Positions 5,996 through 9,956 of a stretch of 15,734 nt of DNA are shown here, piece after piece. The DNA comes from Escherichia coli (GTDB taxonomy: Bacteria; Pseudomonadota; Gammaproteobacteria; Enterobacterales; Enterobacteriaceae), in NCBI RefSeq assembly GCF_003334355.1, contig NZ_QOWP01000050.1, one strand, 5' to 3'. The position numbers and the translations under genes are program-made. How positions within the stretch are numbered: position 1 is the stretch's first letter; every line of letters begins with the position of its first letter. The notes under the pieces were generated by a model. It was not told the DNA's origin. It saw nothing but the letters and a program-made list of their open reading frames with translations, and did not search any database.

Positions 5996-7273
5996 ATGAA
6001 AACAACAGCAAAGCTGTCGTTCATGATGTTTGTTGAATGGTTTATCTGGGGCGCGTGGTTTGTGCCATTGTGGTTGTGGTTAAGTAAAAGCGGTTTTAGT
6101 GCCGGAGAAATTGGCTGGTCGTATGCCTGTACCGCCATTGCGGCGATCCTGTCGCCAATTCTGGTTGGCTCCATCACTGACCGCTTTTTCTCGGCGCAGA
6201 AAGTGCTGGCGGTATTGATGTTCGCAGGCGCGCTGCTGATGTATTTCGCTGCGCAACAGACCACTTTTGCCGGGTTCTTCCCGTTACTGCTGGCCTACTC
6301 GCTAACCTATATGCCGACCATTGCGCTGACTAACAGCATCGCTTTTGCCAACGTGCCGGATGTTGAGCGTGATTTCCCGCGCATTCGTGTGATGGGCACT
6401 ATCGGCTGGATTGCCTCCGGTCTGGCATGTGGTTTCTTGCCGCAAATACTGGGGTATGCCGATATCTCACCGACTAACATCCCGCTGCTGATTACCGCCG
6501 GAAGTTCTGCTCTGCTCGGTGTGTTTGCGTTTTTCCTGCCCGACACGCCACCAAAAAGCACCGGCAAAATGGATATTAAAGTCATGCTCGGCCTGGATGC
6601 GCTGATCCTGCTGCGCGATAAAAACTTCCTCGTCTTTTTCTTCTGTTCATTCCTGTTTGCGATGCCACTAGCGTTCTATTACATCTTTGCCAACGGTTAT
6701 CTGACCGAAGTTGGCATGAAAAACGCCACCGGCTGGATGACGCTCGGCCAGTTCTCTGAAATCTTCTTTATGCTGGCATTGCCGTTTTTCACTAAACGCT
6801 TTGGTATCAAAAAGGTATTATTGCTTGGTCTGGTCACCGCTGCGATCCGCTATGGCTTCTTTATTTACGGTAGTGCGGATGAATATTTCACCTACGCGTT
6901 ACTGTTCCTCGGTATTTTGCTTCACGGCGTAAGTTACGATTTTTACTACGTTACCGCTTACATCTATGTCGATAAAAAAGCCCCCGTGCATATGCGTACC
7001 GCTGCGCAGGGGCTGATCACGCTCTGCTGCCAGGGCTTCGGCAGTTTGCTCGGCTATCGTCTTGGCGGTGTGATGATGGAAAAGATGTTCGCTTATCAGG
7101 AACCGGTAAACGGACTGACTTTCAACTGGTCCGGGATGTGGACTTTCGGCGCGGTGATGATTGCCATTATCGCCGTGCTGTTCATGATTTTTTTCCGCGA
7201 ATCCGACAACGAAATTACGGCTATCAAGGTCGATGATCGCGATATTGCGTTGACACAAGGGGAAGTTAAATGA
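5996..7273 (+). CDS. yegT: MFS nucleoside:H+ symporter family transporter (NupG/XapB-like)
   Basis: 425-aa polytopic membrane protein with RBS AAGGAA 8 nt upstream; stop overlaps the yegU start (ATGA). Confidence 0.85.
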   Translation: MKTTAKLSFMMFVEWFIWGAWFVPLWLWLSKSGFSAGEIGWSYACTAIAAILSPILVGSITDRFFSAQKVLAVLMFAGALLMYFAAQQTTFAGFFPLLLAYSLTYMPTIALTNSIAFANVPDVERDFPRIRVMGTIGWIASGLACGFLPQILGYADISPTNIPLLITAGSSALLGVFAFFLPDTPPKSTGKMDIKVMLGLDALILLRDKNFLVFFFCSFLFAMPLAFYYIFANGYLTEVGMKNATGWMTLGQFSEIFFMLALPFFTKRFGIKKVLLLGLVTAAIRYGFFIYGSADEYFTYALLFLGILLHGVSYDFYYVTAYIYVDKKAPVHMRTAAQGLITLCCQGFGSLLGYRLGGVMMEKMFAYQEPVNGLTFNWSGMWTFGAVMIAIIAVLFMIFFRESDNEITAIKVDDRDIALTQGEVK

Positions 7274-8274
7274 AAACAGAACGTATTCTCGGTGCTCTTT
7301 ATGGGCAGGCGTTAGGGGATGCGATGGGGATGCCCTCCGAGCTTTGGCCACGCAGCCGCGTTAAAGCACACTTTGGCTGGATTGACCGTTTTCTTCCTGG
7401 ACCAAAGGAGAATAACGCGGCCTGTTATTTTAACCGCGCCGAATTCACCGACGATACCTCGATGGCGCTGTGTCTGGCGGATGCGTTACTGGAACGTGAA
7501 GGCAAGATCGATCCGGATCTGATTGGGCGTAATATTCTCGACTGGGCGCTGCGTTTCGACGCCTTTAACAAAAACGTACTTGGTCCGACCTCGAAGATTG
7601 CGCTTAACGCCATTCGCGACGGTAAACCCATTGCTGAACTGGAAAACAACGGCGTGACCAACGGCGCAGCGATGCGCGTCTCGCCATTAGGTTGTTTGCT
7701 TCCGGCGCACGATGTTGATTCCTTTATTGATGATGTGGCGCTGGCGTCCAGCCCGACCCATAAATCCGATCTGGCGGTTGCAGGCGCGGTAGTCATCGCA
7801 TGGGCGATTTCTCGTGCCATTGACGGAGAAAGCTGGTCAGCGATTGTAGATTCACTGCCTTCAATTGCGCGACATGCACAGCAAAAACGCATCACTACCT
7901 TCAGCGCCTCACTGGCAGCACGTCTGGAGATTGCGCTGAAAATTGTGCGCAATGCCGACGGCACCGAATCCGCCAGCGAACAGCTTTACCAGGTCGTTGG
8001 CGCAGGTACCAGCACTATTGAGTCCGTTCCGTGCGCCATTGCGCTGGTTGAACTGGCACAAACCGACCCGAATCGCTGCGCCGTCCTGTGCGCTAACCTT
8101 GGCGGCGACACAGACACCATCGGCGCTATGGCGACGGCGATTTGCGGCGCGTTGCATGGCGTTAACGCTATCGATCCTGCATTAAAGGCGGAACTGGATG
8201 CGGTAAATCAGCTTGATTTCAACCGCTATGCCACAGCGCTGGCGAAATATCGTCAACAACGGGAGGCGGTATGA
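7270..8274 (+). CDS. yegU: ADP-ribosylglycohydrolase family protein
   Basis: 334-aa ORF; N-terminal LGALYGQALGDAMGMP and C-terminal GGDTDTIGAMA motifs are typical of the ADP-ribosylglycohydrolase (ARH/DraG) fold's metal-binding regions. Confidence 0.85.
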   Translation: MKTERILGALYGQALGDAMGMPSELWPRSRVKAHFGWIDRFLPGPKENNAACYFNRAEFTDDTSMALCLADALLEREGKIDPDLIGRNILDWALRFDAFNKNVLGPTSKIALNAIRDGKPIAELENNGVTNGAAMRVSPLGCLLPAHDVDSFIDDVALASSPTHKSDLAVAGAVVIAWAISRAIDGESWSAIVDSLPSIARHAQQKRITTFSASLAARLEIALKIVRNADGTESASEQLYQVVGAGTSTIESVPCAIALVELAQTDPNRCAVLCANLGGDTDTIGAMATAICGALHGVNAIDPALKAELDAVNQLDFNRYATALAKYRQQREAV

Positions 8275-9236
8275 GCGGCGCTCGATTACACACGCTGCTG
8301 CCTGAATTAACCTCGCGTCAGCCGGTGATGGTCGTCGGCGCGGCGGTCATTGATGTGATCGCCGACGCTTATGCCCTCCCCTGGCGTGGGTGCGATATCG
8401 AACTGAAGCAGCAGAGCGTTAACGTTGGCGGCTGCGCACTGAATATTGCCGTGGCGTTAAAGCGCCTCGGCATCGAAGCGGGTAATGCCTTGCCGCTCGG
8501 TCAGGGCGTGTGGGCGGAGATTATTCGCAACCGGATGGCGAAAGAGGGGTTAATCAGCCTGATCGATAACGCCGAAGGCGATAACGGCTGGTGTCTGGCG
8601 CTGGTTGAGCCGGATGGCGAACGCACTTTTATGTCATTCAGCGGTGTGGAAAATCAGTGGAATCGCCAGTGGCTGGCGCGATTAACCGTTGCGCCTGGCA
8701 GCCTGCTCTATTTTTCCGGTTATCAACTGGCCTCGCCCTGCGGCGAATTGTTAGTGGAATGGCTGGAAAAGCTGCAAGACGTGACGCCGTTTATCGATTT
8801 TGGCCCACGTATCGGCGATATCCCGGACGCATTACTGGCGCGGATCATGGCCTGTCGACCTTTAGTATCACTCAATCGTCAAGAGGCTGAGATTGCCGCC
8901 GAACGTTTTGCTTTATCCGCAGAGATAACAACACTTGGCAAGCAATGGCAGGAGAAATTTGCCGCGCCGTTGATCGTTCGTCTCGATAAAGAGGGTGCAT
9001 GGTATTTCAGCAACGACGCTTCTGGCTGCATTCCGGCATTTCCAACGCAAGTTGTAGACACCATTGGGGCGGGCGACAGTCATGCAGGTGGCGTACTTGC
9101 CGGGCTGGCCTCTGGTCTGCCACTGGCGGATGCCGTATTACTGGGCAATGCAGTGGCGTCGTGGGTTGTCGGGCATCGGGGCGGTGATTGTGCGCCAACG
9201 CGCGAGGAACTACTCCTCGCACACAAAAACGTATAG
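8271..9236 (+). CDS. yegV: PfkB/ribokinase-family carbohydrate or nucleoside kinase
   Basis: 321-aa ORF; C-terminal DTIGAGDSHAGG matches the PfkB-family anion-hole/catalytic Asp motif; start overlaps the yegU stop (ATGA). Confidence 0.85.
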   Translation: MSGARLHTLLPELTSRQPVMVVGAAVIDVIADAYALPWRGCDIELKQQSVNVGGCALNIAVALKRLGIEAGNALPLGQGVWAEIIRNRMAKEGLISLIDNAEGDNGWCLALVEPDGERTFMSFSGVENQWNRQWLARLTVAPGSLLYFSGYQLASPCGELLVEWLEKLQDVTPFIDFGPRIGDIPDALLARIMACRPLVSLNRQEAEIAAERFALSAEITTLGKQWQEKFAAPLIVRLDKEGAWYFSNDASGCIPAFPTQVVDTIGAGDSHAGGVLAGLASGLPLADAVLLGNAVASWVVGHRGGDCAPTREELLLAHKNV

Positions 9237-9956
9237 ATCGCTGCGACAGTGGCTAATGCTGTACTCAATAGGCCGTTGCTGTTGGTCAAGCGCCACTTGC
9301 TTGATCACCAGCACCGGTATTTTGCTATCTAACTGAATATGTGACTGAAACTCGGCATCCGGCATCCGGGCGCTAACGCGGGAACGTGTACGTTGTGGGT
9401 AAATGTGCTGGCTGCGGAAATAGTCATAAAGTGAAATCCCGATGGCATCAACATCATGAATTAAATGCGCCGGAACCCACGATTCCTCAATCGATACCGC
9501 TTCTTCATCGACATAGCGAATACGCTTAAGCAAAAAGACATCACTTCCTGCTTCGACCGCCAGCTGCTGCGCGACTTCTTCGGGACATTTCACGACACGC
9601 TTGTTAACCCATAGCGTATCGGGCTTTTTCCCGCGCAATACCACCTGCTGAGAAAAACCTCGCGCTTCTTTCAACGAGTATTCGAAGATGTTGTTGATCT
9701 GCGTGCCGTAACCGCGCGAACGCGTCACCACACCCTCTTCTTCCAGCGCCTGCATCGCCTTGCGCACCGTAATGCGCGAAACGCCGGTTAACTGACTTAA
9801 ATCACGCTCACCGGGCAAAATATTGCCATGCTCCAGCACCCCGCTGCGCACGGCATTTTTTACCGTTTCGGCAAACTTAATATAAAGCGGCGTGTTATCC
9901 GCAGCTAAAATACGCTCGTTCAGTTGGGCAATCAGCTGGGTATGCGCTTGTTCCAT
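9210..9956 (-). CDS. yegW: GntR/HutC-family transcriptional regulator
   Basis: 248-aa ORF with N-terminal wHTH (ERDLSQLTGVSRITVRKAMQAL) and C-terminal UTRA-like effector domain; 3' end overlaps yegV by 27 bp in convergent orientation. Confidence 0.85.
   Translation of the reverse strand: MEQAHTQLIAQLNERILAADNTPLYIKFAETVKNAVRSGVLEHGNILPGERDLSQLTGVSRITVRKAMQALEEEGVVTRSRGYGTQINNIFEYSLKEARGFSQQVVLRGKKPDTLWVNKRVVKCPEEVAQQLAVEAGSDVFLLKRIRYVDEEAVSIEESWVPAHLIHDVDAIGISLYDYFRSQHIYPQRTRSRVSARMPDAEFQSHIQLDSKIPVLVIKQVALDQQQRPIEYSISHCRSDLYVFVCEE

What the first reader, a model, noticed from the sequence alone, without database searches (positions are those of the whole stretch)
5996..9956. yegT-yegU-yegV with convergent yegW: cryptic transporter + ARH-fold hydrolase + PfkB kinase module under a HutC-type regulator
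Three translationally coupled genes (ATGA overlaps at 7270..7273 and 8271..8274) encode a nucleoside-type MFS permease, an ADP-ribosylglycohydrolase-fold enzyme and a ribokinase-family kinase, next to a GntR/HutC regulator. The architecture parallels known nucleoside salvage operons (transporter + glycosidase + PfkB kinase, as in pseudouridine catabolism), but with an ARH-fold enzyme in place of the glycosidase. That suggests uptake and cleavage of an unusual N-ribosylated or ADP-ribose-derived compound followed by phosphorylation of the released sugar. To my knowledge the substrate is not established.
Basis: inference. Interest (0 to 1): 0.6.

Follow-up and report, generated by a model that had tools for sequence, protein, structure and literature searches.

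The report
E. coli yegTUV–yegW orphan riboside operon
This is the known E. coli yegTUV operon with its repressor YegW (GgaR); its substrate is still unknown, but comparison across many bacteria indicates it imports and breaks down an unusual ribose-containing compound using an enzyme fold so far known only for removing ADP-ribose.

Summary
yegT (5996-7273), yegU (7270-8274) and yegV (8271-9236) overlap by ATGA. yegW (9210-9956, minus strand) converges on yegV with a 27-nt overlap. The family assignments hold: NHS permease, ARH fold, PfkB kinase, GntR+UTRA regulator.

Saito 2024 showed a single 3.3-kb yegTUV mRNA repressed about 30-fold by YegW/GgaR, two binding sites, ADP-glucose as an in-vitro effector, and a glycogen phenotype. 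Xiao 2025 solved the YegT structure and found no measurable binding ("did not produce significant results") of uridine, adenosine, cytidine or guanosine. I found no paper that establishes the substrate.

New here:
- 11 ARH-PfkB fusion proteins, in both domain orders.
- In 78 loci from many phyla, PfkB lies next to the ARH gene in 59 and a GntR/UTRA regulator in 46 or 47, depending on the search radius. The transporter varies: NCS1 in 22, NHS in 18, PnuC in 12, ABC in a few.
- YegU keeps all ARH catalytic and metal-binding residues.
- YegV keeps the residues that contact ribofuranose but lacks RbsK N14 and K43.
- A 38-nt candidate operator is shared by both published binding fragments and conserved across 13 genera.

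Best reading: a repressible module that scavenges a non-canonical riboside. The order of the kinase and hydrolase steps is unresolved. The locus is known; the mechanism would be a new variant of nucleoside catabolism.

The parts
5996..7273 (+). yegT: NHS-family (nucleoside:H+ symporter type) MFS permease, 425 aa
   Evidence: ORF. TIGR00889 scores 655 bits against a cut-off of 446. G311/D315 of the GxxxD motif and E255 are present. Crystal structure and lack of measurable binding of canonical nucleosides: PMC11979927.
7270..8274 (+). yegU: ARH-fold (ADP-ribosylglycohydrolase family) hydrolase, 334 aa, apparently cytoplasmic
   Evidence: PF03747, E 1.8e-66. E24, T60-D61-D62-T63, H164 and D280-T281-D282-T283 are present. 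AF2 model pLDDT 96.9. Best structural match is MJ1187, TM 0.82/0.91. Scores fall below the DraG and Tri1 cut-offs.
8271..9236 (+). yegV: PfkB/ribokinase-superfamily kinase, 321 aa, non-canonical sugar pocket
   Evidence: NCBIfam hits are all below cut-off; the best is ribokinase, 82 bits against 300. D28, G53-G54, N58 and the G266-A-G-D269 motif are kept, while the RbsK N14/K43 positions are V26/C55.
9210..9956 (-). yegW (ggaR): GntR/HutC-type repressor with UTRA effector domain, 248 aa
   Evidence: Pfam GntR plus UTRA. Closest solved structure is NagR/YvoA, E 6e-22; R145/R147 align with NagR R133/R135. Repressor function is published.
5920..5965 (+). Candidate primary GgaR operator: AAAGGTATTTAAAAGGTATTATTAAGTGGTATTGTCATCGC-GTACC. 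It has three direct GGTAT repeats plus an inverted GTACC, at -76 to -31 relative to the yegT ATG.
   Evidence: Lies inside the 190-bp fragment that binds GgaR in EMSA. Direct repeats. 30/38 identity to the ORF site, against a shuffle mean of 21.6 and maximum of 25. Nearly invariant in non-coding DNA of 13 genera. Inferred, not footprinted.
6803..6840 (+). Candidate secondary GgaR site inside yegT (GGTATCAAAAAGGTATTATTGCTTGGTCTGGTCACCGC)
   Evidence: Lies inside yegT ORF nt 571-869, the weaker EMSA/ChIP site. Alignment A1. Significance. The sequence is coding, so its conservation is weak evidence.
5912..5941 (+). Sigma-70-like promoter match (-35 TTCACC, 18-nt spacer, -10 TATTAT). The -10 element lies within the second GGTATTAT repeat.
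   Evidence: Consensus scan only. The number of matches in the region is no higher than in shuffles, so this is a lead and not a mapped promoter.
9210..9236 (.). 27-nt convergent overlap of the yegV and yegW 3' coding ends
   Evidence: Sequence read and checked. The pair is listed among RNA-seq 'excludon' pairs in PMC12288877.

Best explanation
yegTUV is a normally silent, GgaR/YegW-repressed operon for uptake and breakdown (ribose scavenging or salvage) of a non-canonical ribosyl compound.

Proposed steps:
1. YegT imports the compound by proton symport.
2. YegV phosphorylates a ribofuranosyl 5-OH.
3. YegU, a di-metal ARH-fold hydrolase, cleaves the bond at ribose C1.

The products would be ribose 5-phosphate, which enters the pentose-phosphate pathway, and a free aglycone that needs no dedicated enzyme.

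I slightly favour the pseudouridine-like order: kinase on the intact riboside, then hydrolase on the 5'-phosphoriboside. The opposite order remains possible.

GgaR would bind the GGTAT-repeat operator that overlaps the promoter, and a weaker copy inside yegT. An anionic, probably phosphorylated, effector would release it.

What is shown and what is inferred:
- Shown by others: co-transcription, repression, the two binding fragments, ADP-glucose as an in-vitro effector, and no measurable YegT binding of U, A, C or G.
- Shown here: conservation of the module, the fusions, the residue patterns and the shared operator element.
- Inferred: the substrate class, the reaction order and the operator function.
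For: Functional coupling of YegU and YegV:
- 11 of the 12 longest proteins (599 aa or more) among the 150 best YegU representatives are ARH+PfkB fusions, in both domain orders.
- PfkB lies within 3.5 kb of the ARH gene in 59 of 78 species loci, and directly downstream in 38.

Small riboside or nucleobase-like substrate:
- The constant ARH+PfkB core pairs with interchangeable transporters of riboside/nucleobase families: NCS1 in 22 loci, NHS in 18, PnuC in 12. The PnuC model TIGR01528 scores 98 bits against a cut-off of 42; Pfam NMN_transporter gives E 1e-34. An ABC system appears in a few loci.
- A DeoD-type purine nucleoside phosphorylase sits in the cluster occasionally.
- YegT gave no measurable binding of the four canonical nucleosides, and its base-contact residues differ from NupG (PMC11979927).

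Active enzymes:
- YegU keeps the residue aligned with ARH3 E41 (E24), the TDDT and GGDTDT metal motifs and H164. The ARH fold is modelled with confidence.
- All 56 ARH-linked PfkB kinases keep the residues equivalent to RbsK D16, G42, N46 and D255. N14 becomes hydrophobic in 54 of 56. K43 is never Lys and is Cys in 43 of 56; the pseudouridine kinase PsuK has Val there.

Regulation:
- Published single target, 3.3-kb transcript and about 30-fold derepression.
- A GntR/UTRA regulator accompanies 41 of 59 PfkB-positive loci.
- YegW R145/R147 and S102 align with NagR R133/R135 and T90. From memory these are NagR's phosphate contacts.
- The 38-nt element is shared by both bound fragments and footprinted across 13 genera.

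Kinase-first order:
- PnuC-type facilitators rely on cytoplasmic phosphorylation for trapping (established knowledge).
- ARH substrates characterised so far carry a 5''-phosphate (established knowledge).
Against: - No biochemical activity has been reported for YegU or YegV.
- Every characterised ARH-fold enzyme acts on ADP-ribosyl conjugates. None is known to act on a free riboside or ribotide.
- The only reported effector is ADP-glucose, and the only phenotypes concern glycogen. The riboside model does not explain these.
- YegT's failure to show binding of canonical nucleosides is also compatible with a substrate that is not a nucleoside at all.
- 19 of 78 loci lack an adjacent kinase. Most are the more distant homologues, but two are enterobacterial loci at 66% identity (L030, L032).
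- The residue arguments for YegV, YegU and YegW rest partly on remembered contact maps of RbsK, ARH3 and NagR.
Confidence: 0.55

Rival explanations
1. ADP-sugar / glycogen-precursor module, the reading suggested by Saito et al. YegT, YegU and YegV would act on ADP-glucose or a close ADP-sugar by import, trimming or formation. Their derepression would raise the ADP-glucose supply and hence glycogen. ADP-glucose would be the physiological inducer.
For: - ADP-glucose at 10-100 uM releases GgaR from the operator in EMSA, while ADP and glucose do not.
- A ggaR deletion accumulates 2-3 times more glycogen.
- A yegV deletion was one of 13 'glycogen-deficient' Keio mutants on ADPG medium.
- The related NHS protein NupG was reported to take part in ADPG uptake.
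- The ARH family binds ADP-ribose.
Against: - ARH chemistry cleaves at ribose C1''. ADP-glucose has no such bond (established chemistry).
- In other phyla the same ARH+PfkB core pairs with PnuC or NCS1 transporters, which carry small ribosides or bases and not dinucleotides.
- ADP-ribose, NAD, sugar phosphates and ribotides were not tested as effectors, so specificity for ADPG is not shown.
- The yegV hit came from a screen and was not followed up. A standard Keio deletion of yegV would also remove the yegW stop codon.
- ARH3's adenine/diphosphate region (F143, S148, Y149; contact roles from memory) is not conserved in YegU.
Confidence: 0.15
2. YegU hydrolyses the imported riboside first, and YegV is simply a dedicated ribokinase for the released free ribose, as in nucleoside-hydrolase plus rbsK clusters and the Bacteroides rus loci.
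For: - YegV's best NCBIfam match is ribokinase.
- Bacteroidetes ribose-utilisation loci combine ribokinases with nucleoside hydrolases or ARH-family enzymes (bioRxiv 574913).
- The fusions and the adjacency are equally compatible with this order.
Against: - YegV scores 82 bits against the 300-bit ribokinase cut-off.
- RbsK N14 and K43, which from memory contact ribose O1, are replaced by hydrophobic residues or Cys throughout the ARH-linked kinases.
- E. coli already has RbsK.
- The PnuC partnership suggests the imported molecule itself is phosphorylated (inference).
Confidence: 0.2
3. YegU is a macromolecular de-ADP-ribosylase, like DraG, Tri1 or ARH1/3. It would reverse ADP-ribosylation of a protein or nucleic acid, and its linkage to the transporter and kinase would be incidental.
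For: - All solved and characterised relatives are ADP-ribosyl hydrolases.
- The catalytic residues are intact.
Against: - Scores are far below the DraG cut-off (80 against 337 bits) and the Tri1 cut-off (70 against 490 bits).
- No ADP-ribosyltransferase partner lies in the locus.
- YegU is translationally coupled to a permease and a kinase, fused to the kinase in other taxa, and under a catabolic-type HutC repressor.
Confidence: 0.05

Closest known systems
E. coli pseudouridine operon psuK-psuG-psuT (yeiC-yeiN-yeiM)
   Same: A nucleoside-type transporter, a PfkB kinase and a glycosidase sit in one overlapping operon (L095). The kinase acts on the riboside and the glycosidase on the 5'-phosphate, giving ribose 5-phosphate plus the base (established knowledge). 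This is the working model adopted here.
   Different: - The glycosidase fold differs: PsuG/IndA against ARH.
- The transporter family differs: NupC type against NHS.
- YegV scores only 19 bits against the 540-bit PsuK cut-off.
- PsuK keeps the RbsK N14 equivalent; YegV does not.
- The substrate is unknown.
ARH-fold hydrolases: ARH3, ARH1, DraG, Tri1, and the uncharacterised MJ1187
   Same: The fold is the same (TM 0.72-0.82). The di-metal motifs TDDT and GGDTDT and the residue aligned with ARH3 E41 are present.
   Different: - YegU falls below the DraG and Tri1 equivalog cut-offs.
- The nearest structure, MJ1187, has no known function.
- ARH3's F143/S148/Y149 segment is not conserved (roles from memory).
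- The genomic context is a transporter/kinase catabolic operon, not a transferase/hydrolase regulatory pair.
Bacteroidetes ribose-utilisation systems (rus loci)
   Same: Ribokinase(s) plus a permease plus a variable ribose-releasing enzyme, sometimes an ADP-ribosylglycohydrolase, under a local regulator. They are proposed to scavenge ribose from diverse conjugates (bioRxiv 574913).
   Different: The rus loci are SusC/D-based PULs with a ribose-sensing regulator. The ARH enzyme there is optional and was not characterised. No fusion or fixed ARH-kinase pair is described.
NagR/YvoA, DasR and other HutC-type UTRA repressors of sugar-phosphate pathways
   Same: The domain architecture is the same. 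NagR is the closest solved relative. The Arg pair and the Ser/Thr that bind the effector phosphate in NagR are aligned. YegW is a single-target local repressor of an adjacent catabolic operon.
   Different: The operator here consists of direct GGTAT repeats plus one inverted copy, not the palindromic dre-type site. The reported effector is ADP-glucose, and the physiological effector is unknown.
NupG / XapB nucleoside:H+ symporters
   Same: YegT passes the TIGR00889 cut-off and shares the fold and the GxxxD protonation site.
   Different: Identity to NupG is about 27%. The uridine-contact residues F143, Y318, F322 and N228 are not conserved, and ITC with U, A, C and G 'did not produce significant results'.
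PnuC-NadR type 'facilitator plus kinase' riboside salvage
   Same: In 12 Clostridia loci the ARH+PfkB pair is followed by a PnuC-family transporter. In known systems such transporters depend on phosphorylation of the imported riboside (established knowledge).
   Different: The kinase family differs: PfkB, not the NadR ribosylnicotinamide-kinase domain. A hydrolase is present as well. E. coli itself uses an NHS permease here, not PnuC.

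Membership tests
NHS (nucleoside:H+ symporter) family of MFS, TC 2.A.1.10 | Full-length match to the family model above the curated cut-off | tested here: met
   TIGR00889: 654.9 bits against a cut-off of 446.1, residues 1-418.
NHS (nucleoside:H+ symporter) family of MFS, TC 2.A.1.10 | GxxxD protonation motif in TM10 and the partner Glu in TM8 | tested here: met
   G311, D315 and E255 are present in the window's YegT. Their role is described in PMC11979927.
NHS (nucleoside:H+ symporter) family of MFS, TC 2.A.1.10 | Binding or transport of canonical nucleosides | not testable with these tools
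   Published ITC with uridine, adenosine, cytidine and guanosine 'did not produce significant results' (PMC11979927). On published data the feature is not met.
ADP-ribosylglycohydrolase (ARH) family, Pfam PF03747 | Domain match and all-helical ARH fold | tested here: met
   PF03747, E 1.8e-66, model positions 1-285 of 287. AF2 model pLDDT 96.9. Foldseek against MJ1187, ARH3 and DraG: probability 1.00, TM 0.72-0.82.
ADP-ribosylglycohydrolase (ARH) family, Pfam PF03747 | Di-metal ligands (TDDT and GGDTDT motifs) and the catalytic Glu | tested here: met
   E24 aligns with ARH3 E41. T60-D61-D62-T63, D280-T281-D282-T283 and H164 are present. D61 and D282 are invariant; T60, D62, D280 and T283 are at least 90% conserved in 28 homologues.
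ADP-ribosylglycohydrolase (ARH) family, Pfam PF03747 | Hydrolysis of an ADP-ribosyl (alpha-C1'') linkage | not testable with these tools
   No assay has been reported for YegU in the papers searched.
DraG (ADP-ribosyl-[dinitrogen reductase] hydrolase) / Tri1 (ADP-ribosylarginine hydrolase) equivalogs | Score above the curated equivalog cut-off | tested here: not met
   DraG TIGR02662: 79.7 bits against 337. Tri1 NF041672: 69.6 bits against 490.
PfkB / ribokinase superfamily | Fold-level match, GG dipeptide, NxxE-region Asn, and the GAGD anion hole with its catalytic Asp | tested here: met
   Full-length matches to many PfkB models. G53-G54, N202 and G266-A-G-D269 are present. Orthologues carry PF00294.
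Ribokinase RbsK (equivalog) | Score above the cut-off and conservation of the ribose O1-side contacts N14 and K43 | tested here: not met
   TIGR02152: 82.3 bits against 299.65. NF008353: 60 bits against 341. N14 becomes V26 and K43 becomes C55. Among 56 ARH-linked kinases the N14 position is hydrophobic in 54, and the K43 position is Cys in 43 and never Lys. The contact roles come from memory of the RbsK structure.
Pseudouridine kinase PsuK/YeiC (equivalog) | Score above the curated cut-off | tested here: not met
   NF007355: 19 bits against 540.
GntR family, HutC subfamily | N-terminal GntR winged helix-turn-helix plus C-terminal UTRA effector domain | tested here: met
   GntR 29-87 (E 7e-16) and UTRA 108-242 (E 3.5e-36). 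Full-length similarity to PhnF, HutC, TreR and NagR.
GntR family, HutC subfamily | Local repressor released by a small-molecule effector | not testable with these tools
   Published: about 30-fold derepression in the ggaR deletion, and ADP-glucose releases the DNA in EMSA (PMC10819704).
Nucleoside catabolic operon of the 'transporter + kinase + glycosidase' type (psu-like) | Co-transcription of the three functions | not testable with these tools
   The sequence shows ATGA overlaps. A published Northern blot shows one 3.3-kb yegTUV mRNA.
Nucleoside catabolic operon of the 'transporter + kinase + glycosidase' type (psu-like) | Evolutionarily conserved linkage of kinase and glycosidase | tested here: met
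   PfkB lies next to the ARH gene in 59 of 78 loci. There are 11 fusion proteins in both domain orders.
Nucleoside catabolic operon of the 'transporter + kinase + glycosidase' type (psu-like) | Demonstrated riboside substrate and products | not testable with these tools
   Unknown. No report was found in eight literature searches.

The most novel reading that the evidence does not exclude
ARH-fold proteins of the YegU/MJ1187 type may be a widespread, unrecognised class of small-molecule ribosyl hydrolases. They would work as an obligate pair, sometimes a fusion, with a dedicated Cys-containing PfkB riboside kinase, and form a self-contained cassette (regulator, hydrolase, transporter, kinase) that has swapped its transporter among at least four families.

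The substrate could be an alpha- or O-linked riboside that ordinary beta-nucleoside hydrolases and phosphorylases cannot handle. Candidates:
- 2'-O-ribosyladenosine from digested poly(ADP-ribose).
- Alpha-ribazole-type cobamide nucleosides.
- Alpha-anomers or reduced forms of nicotinamide riboside.
- Ribosyl-amino acids from ADP-ribosylated proteins.

In E. coli the pathway would also cross-talk with ADP-glucose and glycogen metabolism.
Probability: 0.3. Interest if true: 0.7.

Novelty: new variant of a known kind. Interest (0 to 1): 0.45.

Why it matters
yegTUVW belongs to the E. coli core genome (5420 of 5426 complete genomes), yet none of its three structural genes has a known substrate. 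The same two-enzyme core occurs in gut Firmicutes, Actinobacteria, Pseudomonas, Chloroflexi and Thaumarchaeota.

If an ARH-fold enzyme does cleave a free riboside or ribotide, that would extend a fold known only for reversing ADP-ribosylation into ordinary nutrient catabolism. It would also define a new nucleoside-type salvage route that may matter in the gut. It could explain why derepressing the operon alters glycogen storage and pressure resistance.

The comparative evidence narrows the experiment to a short list of candidate ribosides. It also supplies a concrete operator sequence to test.

Tried and rejected
- **Literature.** Eight full-text searches found no paper giving a substrate or activity for YegU or YegV, or for ARH+PfkB clusters. 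Two search slots were left unused.
- **Riboswitch or leader RNA upstream of yegT as a ligand clue.** No Rfam match in 5780-6100, even at E up to 1.
- **Extra pathway enzymes for the aglycone.** Clustering all neighbouring ORFs gave only synteny genes (fbaB, thiM, thiD, yegS) and families with no consistent position. The Zn-dehydrogenase cluster C4 sits at variable distance and strand. It was rejected as part of the module.
- **A solved ARH-fold enzyme with a small-molecule riboside substrate.** Neither the sequence search nor the Foldseek search of the PDB found one. The top hit, MJ1187, is uncharacterised.
- **NCS1 and ABC binding-protein subfamilies as substrate clues.** All scores fall below the curated cut-offs: generic NCS1, weak CytX, weak PotD. 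Uninformative.
- **The sigma-70 scan.** The number of matches is no higher than in shuffles. The promoter assignment is only a lead.
- **Conservation of the intragenic operator copy.** It lies in coding sequence and loses a GGTAT repeat in Enterobacter, Cedecea and Mangrovibacter. Conservation there is not evidence.
- **Not attempted.** Residue-level pocket analysis of the AF2 model was not possible because no coordinates are returned. Phylogenetic profiling was not done.

Full report
**What is in the window.** The window is an Escherichia coli chromosomal segment carrying gatDCBAZY-fbaB-yegTUV-yegW-yegX-thiDM-rcnRAB-yehA. The region 5800-10200 matches strain PSS-12 at 100.0% with the highest bit score. 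It is present at 80% coverage or more in 5420 of 5426 complete E. coli genomes and is annotated as yegT, yegU, yegV, yegW.
- yegT 5996-7273, yegU 7270-8274 and yegV 8271-9236 on the plus strand; yegW 9210-9956 on the minus strand.
- The two ATGA start/stop overlaps sit at 7270-7273 and 8271-8274, each preceded by a Shine-Dalgarno-like purine run.
- The yegV and yegW coding ends overlap convergently by 27 nt.

**Protein families.**
- YegT passes the curated nucleoside-permease (NHS) model: TIGR00889, 655 bits against 446.
- YegU is a full-length ADP-ribosylglycohydrolase domain: PF03747, E 1.8e-66. It lies far below the equivalog cut-offs for DraG (80 against 337) and Tri1 (70 against 490).
- YegV is a PfkB-superfamily kinase whose best hit, ribokinase, reaches only 82 of the 300 bits required. 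Pseudouridine kinase reaches 19 of 540.
- YegW has a GntR helix-turn-helix (29-87) and a UTRA domain (108-242), which places it in the HutC subfamily.

**What is already published.**
- Saito et al. 2024 (PMC10819704) renamed YegW GgaR. ChIP-chip found a single genomic target, the fbaB/yegT spacer plus a weaker site inside yegT. EMSA localised binding to the 190 bp upstream of yegT and to yegT nt 571-869. Northern blots showed one 3.3-kb yegTUV transcript seen only in the ggaR deletion, and RT-qPCR showed about 30-fold derepression. ADP-glucose released GgaR in vitro, but ADP and glucose did not. The ggaR deletion accumulated 2-3 times more glycogen. [quoted passage not shown]
- Xiao et al. 2025 (PMC11979927) solved YegT(K267A) at 3.1 A. 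The NupG uridine-contact residues are not conserved. ITC with uridine, adenosine, cytidine and guanosine 'did not produce significant results'.
- A 2024-25 preprint still lists YegV as an uncharacterised sugar kinase.
- The link between yegV and ADP-glucose comes from one hit in a Keio iodine-staining screen on ADPG medium. It was not followed up (Almagro 2018, PMC6195507).

Its statement that the substrate is unknown matches everything I could find.

**New evidence 1: YegU and YegV act as a pair.** A search of 1.84 billion representative proteins with YegU gave 235 hits at E 1e-30 or better. Twelve of the best 150 are 599 aa or longer. Eleven of these are ARH+PfkB fusions:
- Four in the order ARH-PfkB: P0204, P0221, P0228, P0252.
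- Seven in the order PfkB-ARH: P0187, P0195, P0201, P0206, P0207, P0209, P0213.
- The twelfth, P0160, is a tandem ARH-ARH protein.

Fusion in both orders is classic evidence for consecutive steps in one pathway.

**New evidence 2: a conserved cassette with a swappable transporter.** An alignment of 28 diverse YegU homologues (A2) was used to fetch 78 loci from named genomes. These cover Enterobacterales, Vibrio, Bacillales, Lachnospiraceae and other Clostridia, Negativicutes, Lactobacillales, Actinobacteria, Chloroflexi, Rhizobiales, Pseudomonas, Burkholderiales and Thaumarchaeota. ORFs were called in every locus and searched with seed proteins. The remaining ORFs were clustered and the results tallied.
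- A PfkB gene lies within 3.5 kb of the ARH gene in 59 of 78 loci, and directly downstream in 38.
- A GntR/UTRA regulator is present in 41 of those 59 loci, and in 5 of the 19 loci without a kinase.
- The adjacent transporter is NCS1 (Transp_cyt_pur) in 22 loci.
- It is NHS (YegT-like) in 18 loci, all from Enterobacterales or Vibrio.
- It is a PnuC-family protein in 12 Clostridia loci: TIGR01528, 98 bits against 42; Pfam NMN_transporter, E 1e-34.
- It is an ABC system in a few loci.

Metagenomic contigs show the same arrangements: GntR | ARH-NCS1-PfkB, ARH-PfkB-NCS1-DeoD-type PNP, and GntR-ARH::PfkB-ABC-ARH. No further enzyme recurs in a fixed position. The Zn-dehydrogenase cluster C4 is scattered. 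The cassette therefore appears complete with a regulator, a transporter and two enzymes, and the aglycone seems to need no dedicated enzyme. NHS, NCS1 and PnuC are all families that carry nucleosides, nucleobases or vitamin ribosides (established knowledge). This points to a small ribosyl compound and not to a dinucleotide or a macromolecule.

**New evidence 3: active-site patterns.**
- YegU. It keeps the residue aligned with ARH3's catalytic E41 (E24), both metal-binding motifs (T60-D61-D62-T63 and D280-T281-D282-T283) and H164. D61 and D282 are invariant and their neighbours at least 90% conserved across the 28 homologues. An AF2 model is very confident (pLDDT 96.9). Its best structural neighbour is the uncharacterised MJ1187 (TM 0.82/0.91), followed by a Thermus ARH-related protein, ARH3 and DraG. 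No solved ARH-fold enzyme has a small-molecule riboside as its assigned substrate. The ARH3 segment that I recall as contacting adenine and the diphosphate (F143, S148, Y149) aligns with N126, a deletion and V129 in YegU. This point rests on memory and carries little weight.
- YegV. I aligned 56 ARH-linked PfkB kinases with E. coli RbsK, PsuK and FruK. The equivalents of RbsK D16, G42, N46 and the catalytic D255 are conserved in all 56. RbsK N14 is replaced by a hydrophobic residue in 54 of 56. K43 is never Lys and is Cys in 43 of 56; PsuK has Val there. Family-specific C108 and F120 also appear. The pocket therefore still fits a ribofuranosyl 2',3'-diol and a 5'-OH, but it is not a canonical free-ribose pocket.
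- YegW. Its closest solved relative is the sugar-phosphate sensor NagR/YvoA (E 6e-22). NagR R133/R135 and T90, which I recall as the phosphate ligands, align with YegW R145/R147 and S102. This suggests an anionic, probably phosphorylated, effector.

- The two GgaR-binding fragments share a 38-nt element in the same orientation: 5923-5960, GGTATTTAAAAGGTATTATTAAGTGGTATTGTCATCGC, and 6803-6840, GGTATCAAAAAGGTATTATTGCTTGGTCTGGTCACCGC.
- They are identical at 30 of 38 positions. In 300 dinucleotide-preserving shuffles the mean was 21.6 (sd 1.0) and the maximum 25. The best score against other real segments of the window was 24.
- The upstream copy consists of three direct GGTAT repeats spaced 11 and 13 nt apart, followed by an inverted GTACC.
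- It overlaps a sigma-70-like match whose -10 element (TATTAT) lies in the second repeat. That match comes from a consensus scan only.
- In the non-coding DNA upstream of yegT in 13 enterobacterial genera, AAAGGTATTT(A/C/T)AAAGGTATTA is essentially invariant. The 20-column identity is 0.97, against 0.35-0.8 in the flanking sequence. TGGTA and GTACC are also conserved.
- Vibrio ruber has GGTATT-N6-GGTATT followed by an inverted TATACCA.
- The intragenic copy lies in coding sequence and is only partly conserved, which fits its weaker binding.

**Mechanism proposed.** The best-supported reading (confidence about 0.55) is a repressible uptake-and-catabolism module for a non-canonical ribosyl compound. 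YegT imports it, YegV phosphorylates the ribosyl 5-OH, and YegU hydrolyses the C1 linkage. The products are ribose 5-phosphate and a common or discarded aglycone. I slightly favour kinase-first, as in the pseudouridine pathway, for three reasons:
- The kinase pocket is not ribokinase-like.
- PnuC-type partners depend on phosphorylation of the imported molecule.
- ARH enzymes normally work on 5''-phosphorylated ribose.

None of these is decisive. Characterised ARH enzymes are specific for alpha-linked C1'' bonds (established knowledge), and YegT shows no measurable binding of the beta-nucleosides U, A, C and G. Attractive candidates are therefore alpha- or O-linked ribosides: 2'-O-ribosyladenosine from poly(ADP-ribose) digestion, alpha-ribazole-type cobamide nucleosides, alpha or reduced nicotinamide ribosides, and ribosyl-amino acids. 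This is inference only.

**Rival readings.**
- The ADP-glucose/glycogen reading (about 0.15) has the only direct experimental support: the effector and the phenotypes. It fits poorly with ARH chemistry and with the PnuC and NCS1 partners elsewhere. The effector panel lacked ADP-ribose, sugar phosphates and ribotides. A standard Keio deletion of yegV, which keeps only the last 21 nt, would also remove the yegW stop codon and last codon. That phenotype therefore needs a cleaner allele.
- A DraG-like macromolecular de-ADP-ribosylase role (about 0.05) is contradicted by the equivalog scores and by the genomic context.

**Comparison with known systems, and novelty.** The module works like the psuKGT pseudouridine operon and like nucleoside-hydrolase/ribokinase or Bacteroides rus clusters. 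It is not a member of any of these. The glycosidase fold, the kinase subfamily and the (unknown) substrate all differ, and the RbsK, PsuK, DraG and Tri1 membership tests were run and failed. The locus, its regulator and its transporter structure are already known. The ARH+PfkB cassette as a widespread riboside-processing unit, and the operator element, are to my knowledge not described. I rate it a new variant of a known kind, with moderate interest (0.45). It is not surprising as an architecture, but it makes the function of a core-genome orphan operon directly testable.

Noticed in passing
window 10599-10601 (minus strand), within yegX 10008-10826: yegX (GH25 lysozyme-like) carries an in-frame TAG at codon 76 (...SRW*ERIDW...), so it is a pseudogene in this strain. 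An exact 41-nt match across the stop was found in only 1 of 5426 complete E. coli genomes, strain PSS-12. The window probably comes from that strain.
   Followed up: partly
window 9210-9236: The yegV and yegW coding ends overlap by 27 nt. A standard Keio-type yegV deletion, which retains the last 21 nt, would delete the yegW stop codon and last codon. The published 'glycogen-deficient' yegV phenotype may therefore be confounded by an altered GgaR C-terminus (Keio design from memory). The pair is also listed as an RNA-seq 'excludon'.
   Followed up: partly
window 5894-5909: TGTTAGCGCGGTCAAG lies upstream of the GGTAT repeats. TGTTA-N6-TCA is conserved across the 13-genus alignment and loosely resembles a CRP half-site pair (7 of 10 positions matching TGTGA-N6-TCACA). 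It may be a catabolite-control site.
   Followed up: no
window 12511-12607 (minus strand): A TPP riboswitch upstream of thiM: RF00059, 71.2 bits against a gathering score of 54.3. It matches the annotation in the related genome.
   Followed up: yes
window 4586-4656 (minus strand): A naRNA4 (nucleoid-associated ncRNA, REP-derived) match in the gatY-fbaB intergenic region: RF02564, 62.7 bits against 59.5.
   Followed up: no
L030 (Brenneria roseae) and L032 (Edwardsiella hoshinae), ARH gene at about 8000-9000: These two enterobacterial loci have a YegU orthologue at 66% identity, but no PfkB or NHS gene was detected nearby. The module may be decaying or rearranged.
   Followed up: no
L034 (Serratia oryzae) 7028-13533: A hybrid locus: GntR | ARH-NCS1-PfkB, followed on the opposite strand by an NHS permease and a PNP_UDP_1 phosphorylase. 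It may be an intermediate in the swap from NCS1 to NHS transporter, and it links the module to purine nucleoside metabolism.
   Followed up: no
P0160 (692 aa) and L013 7511-8500: Some relatives carry two ARH domains in tandem (P0160). Others have a second ARH gene after an ABC transporter (L013). This hints at two successive glycosidic cleavages in some lineages.
   Followed up: no
YegV residues C55 and C108 (window about 8433-8435 and 8592-8594): Two cysteines line the predicted substrate pocket of ARH-linked PfkB kinases, conserved in 43 and 41 of 56 sequences respectively. This is unusual for ribokinase-like enzymes and could serve as a family signature.
   Followed up: no
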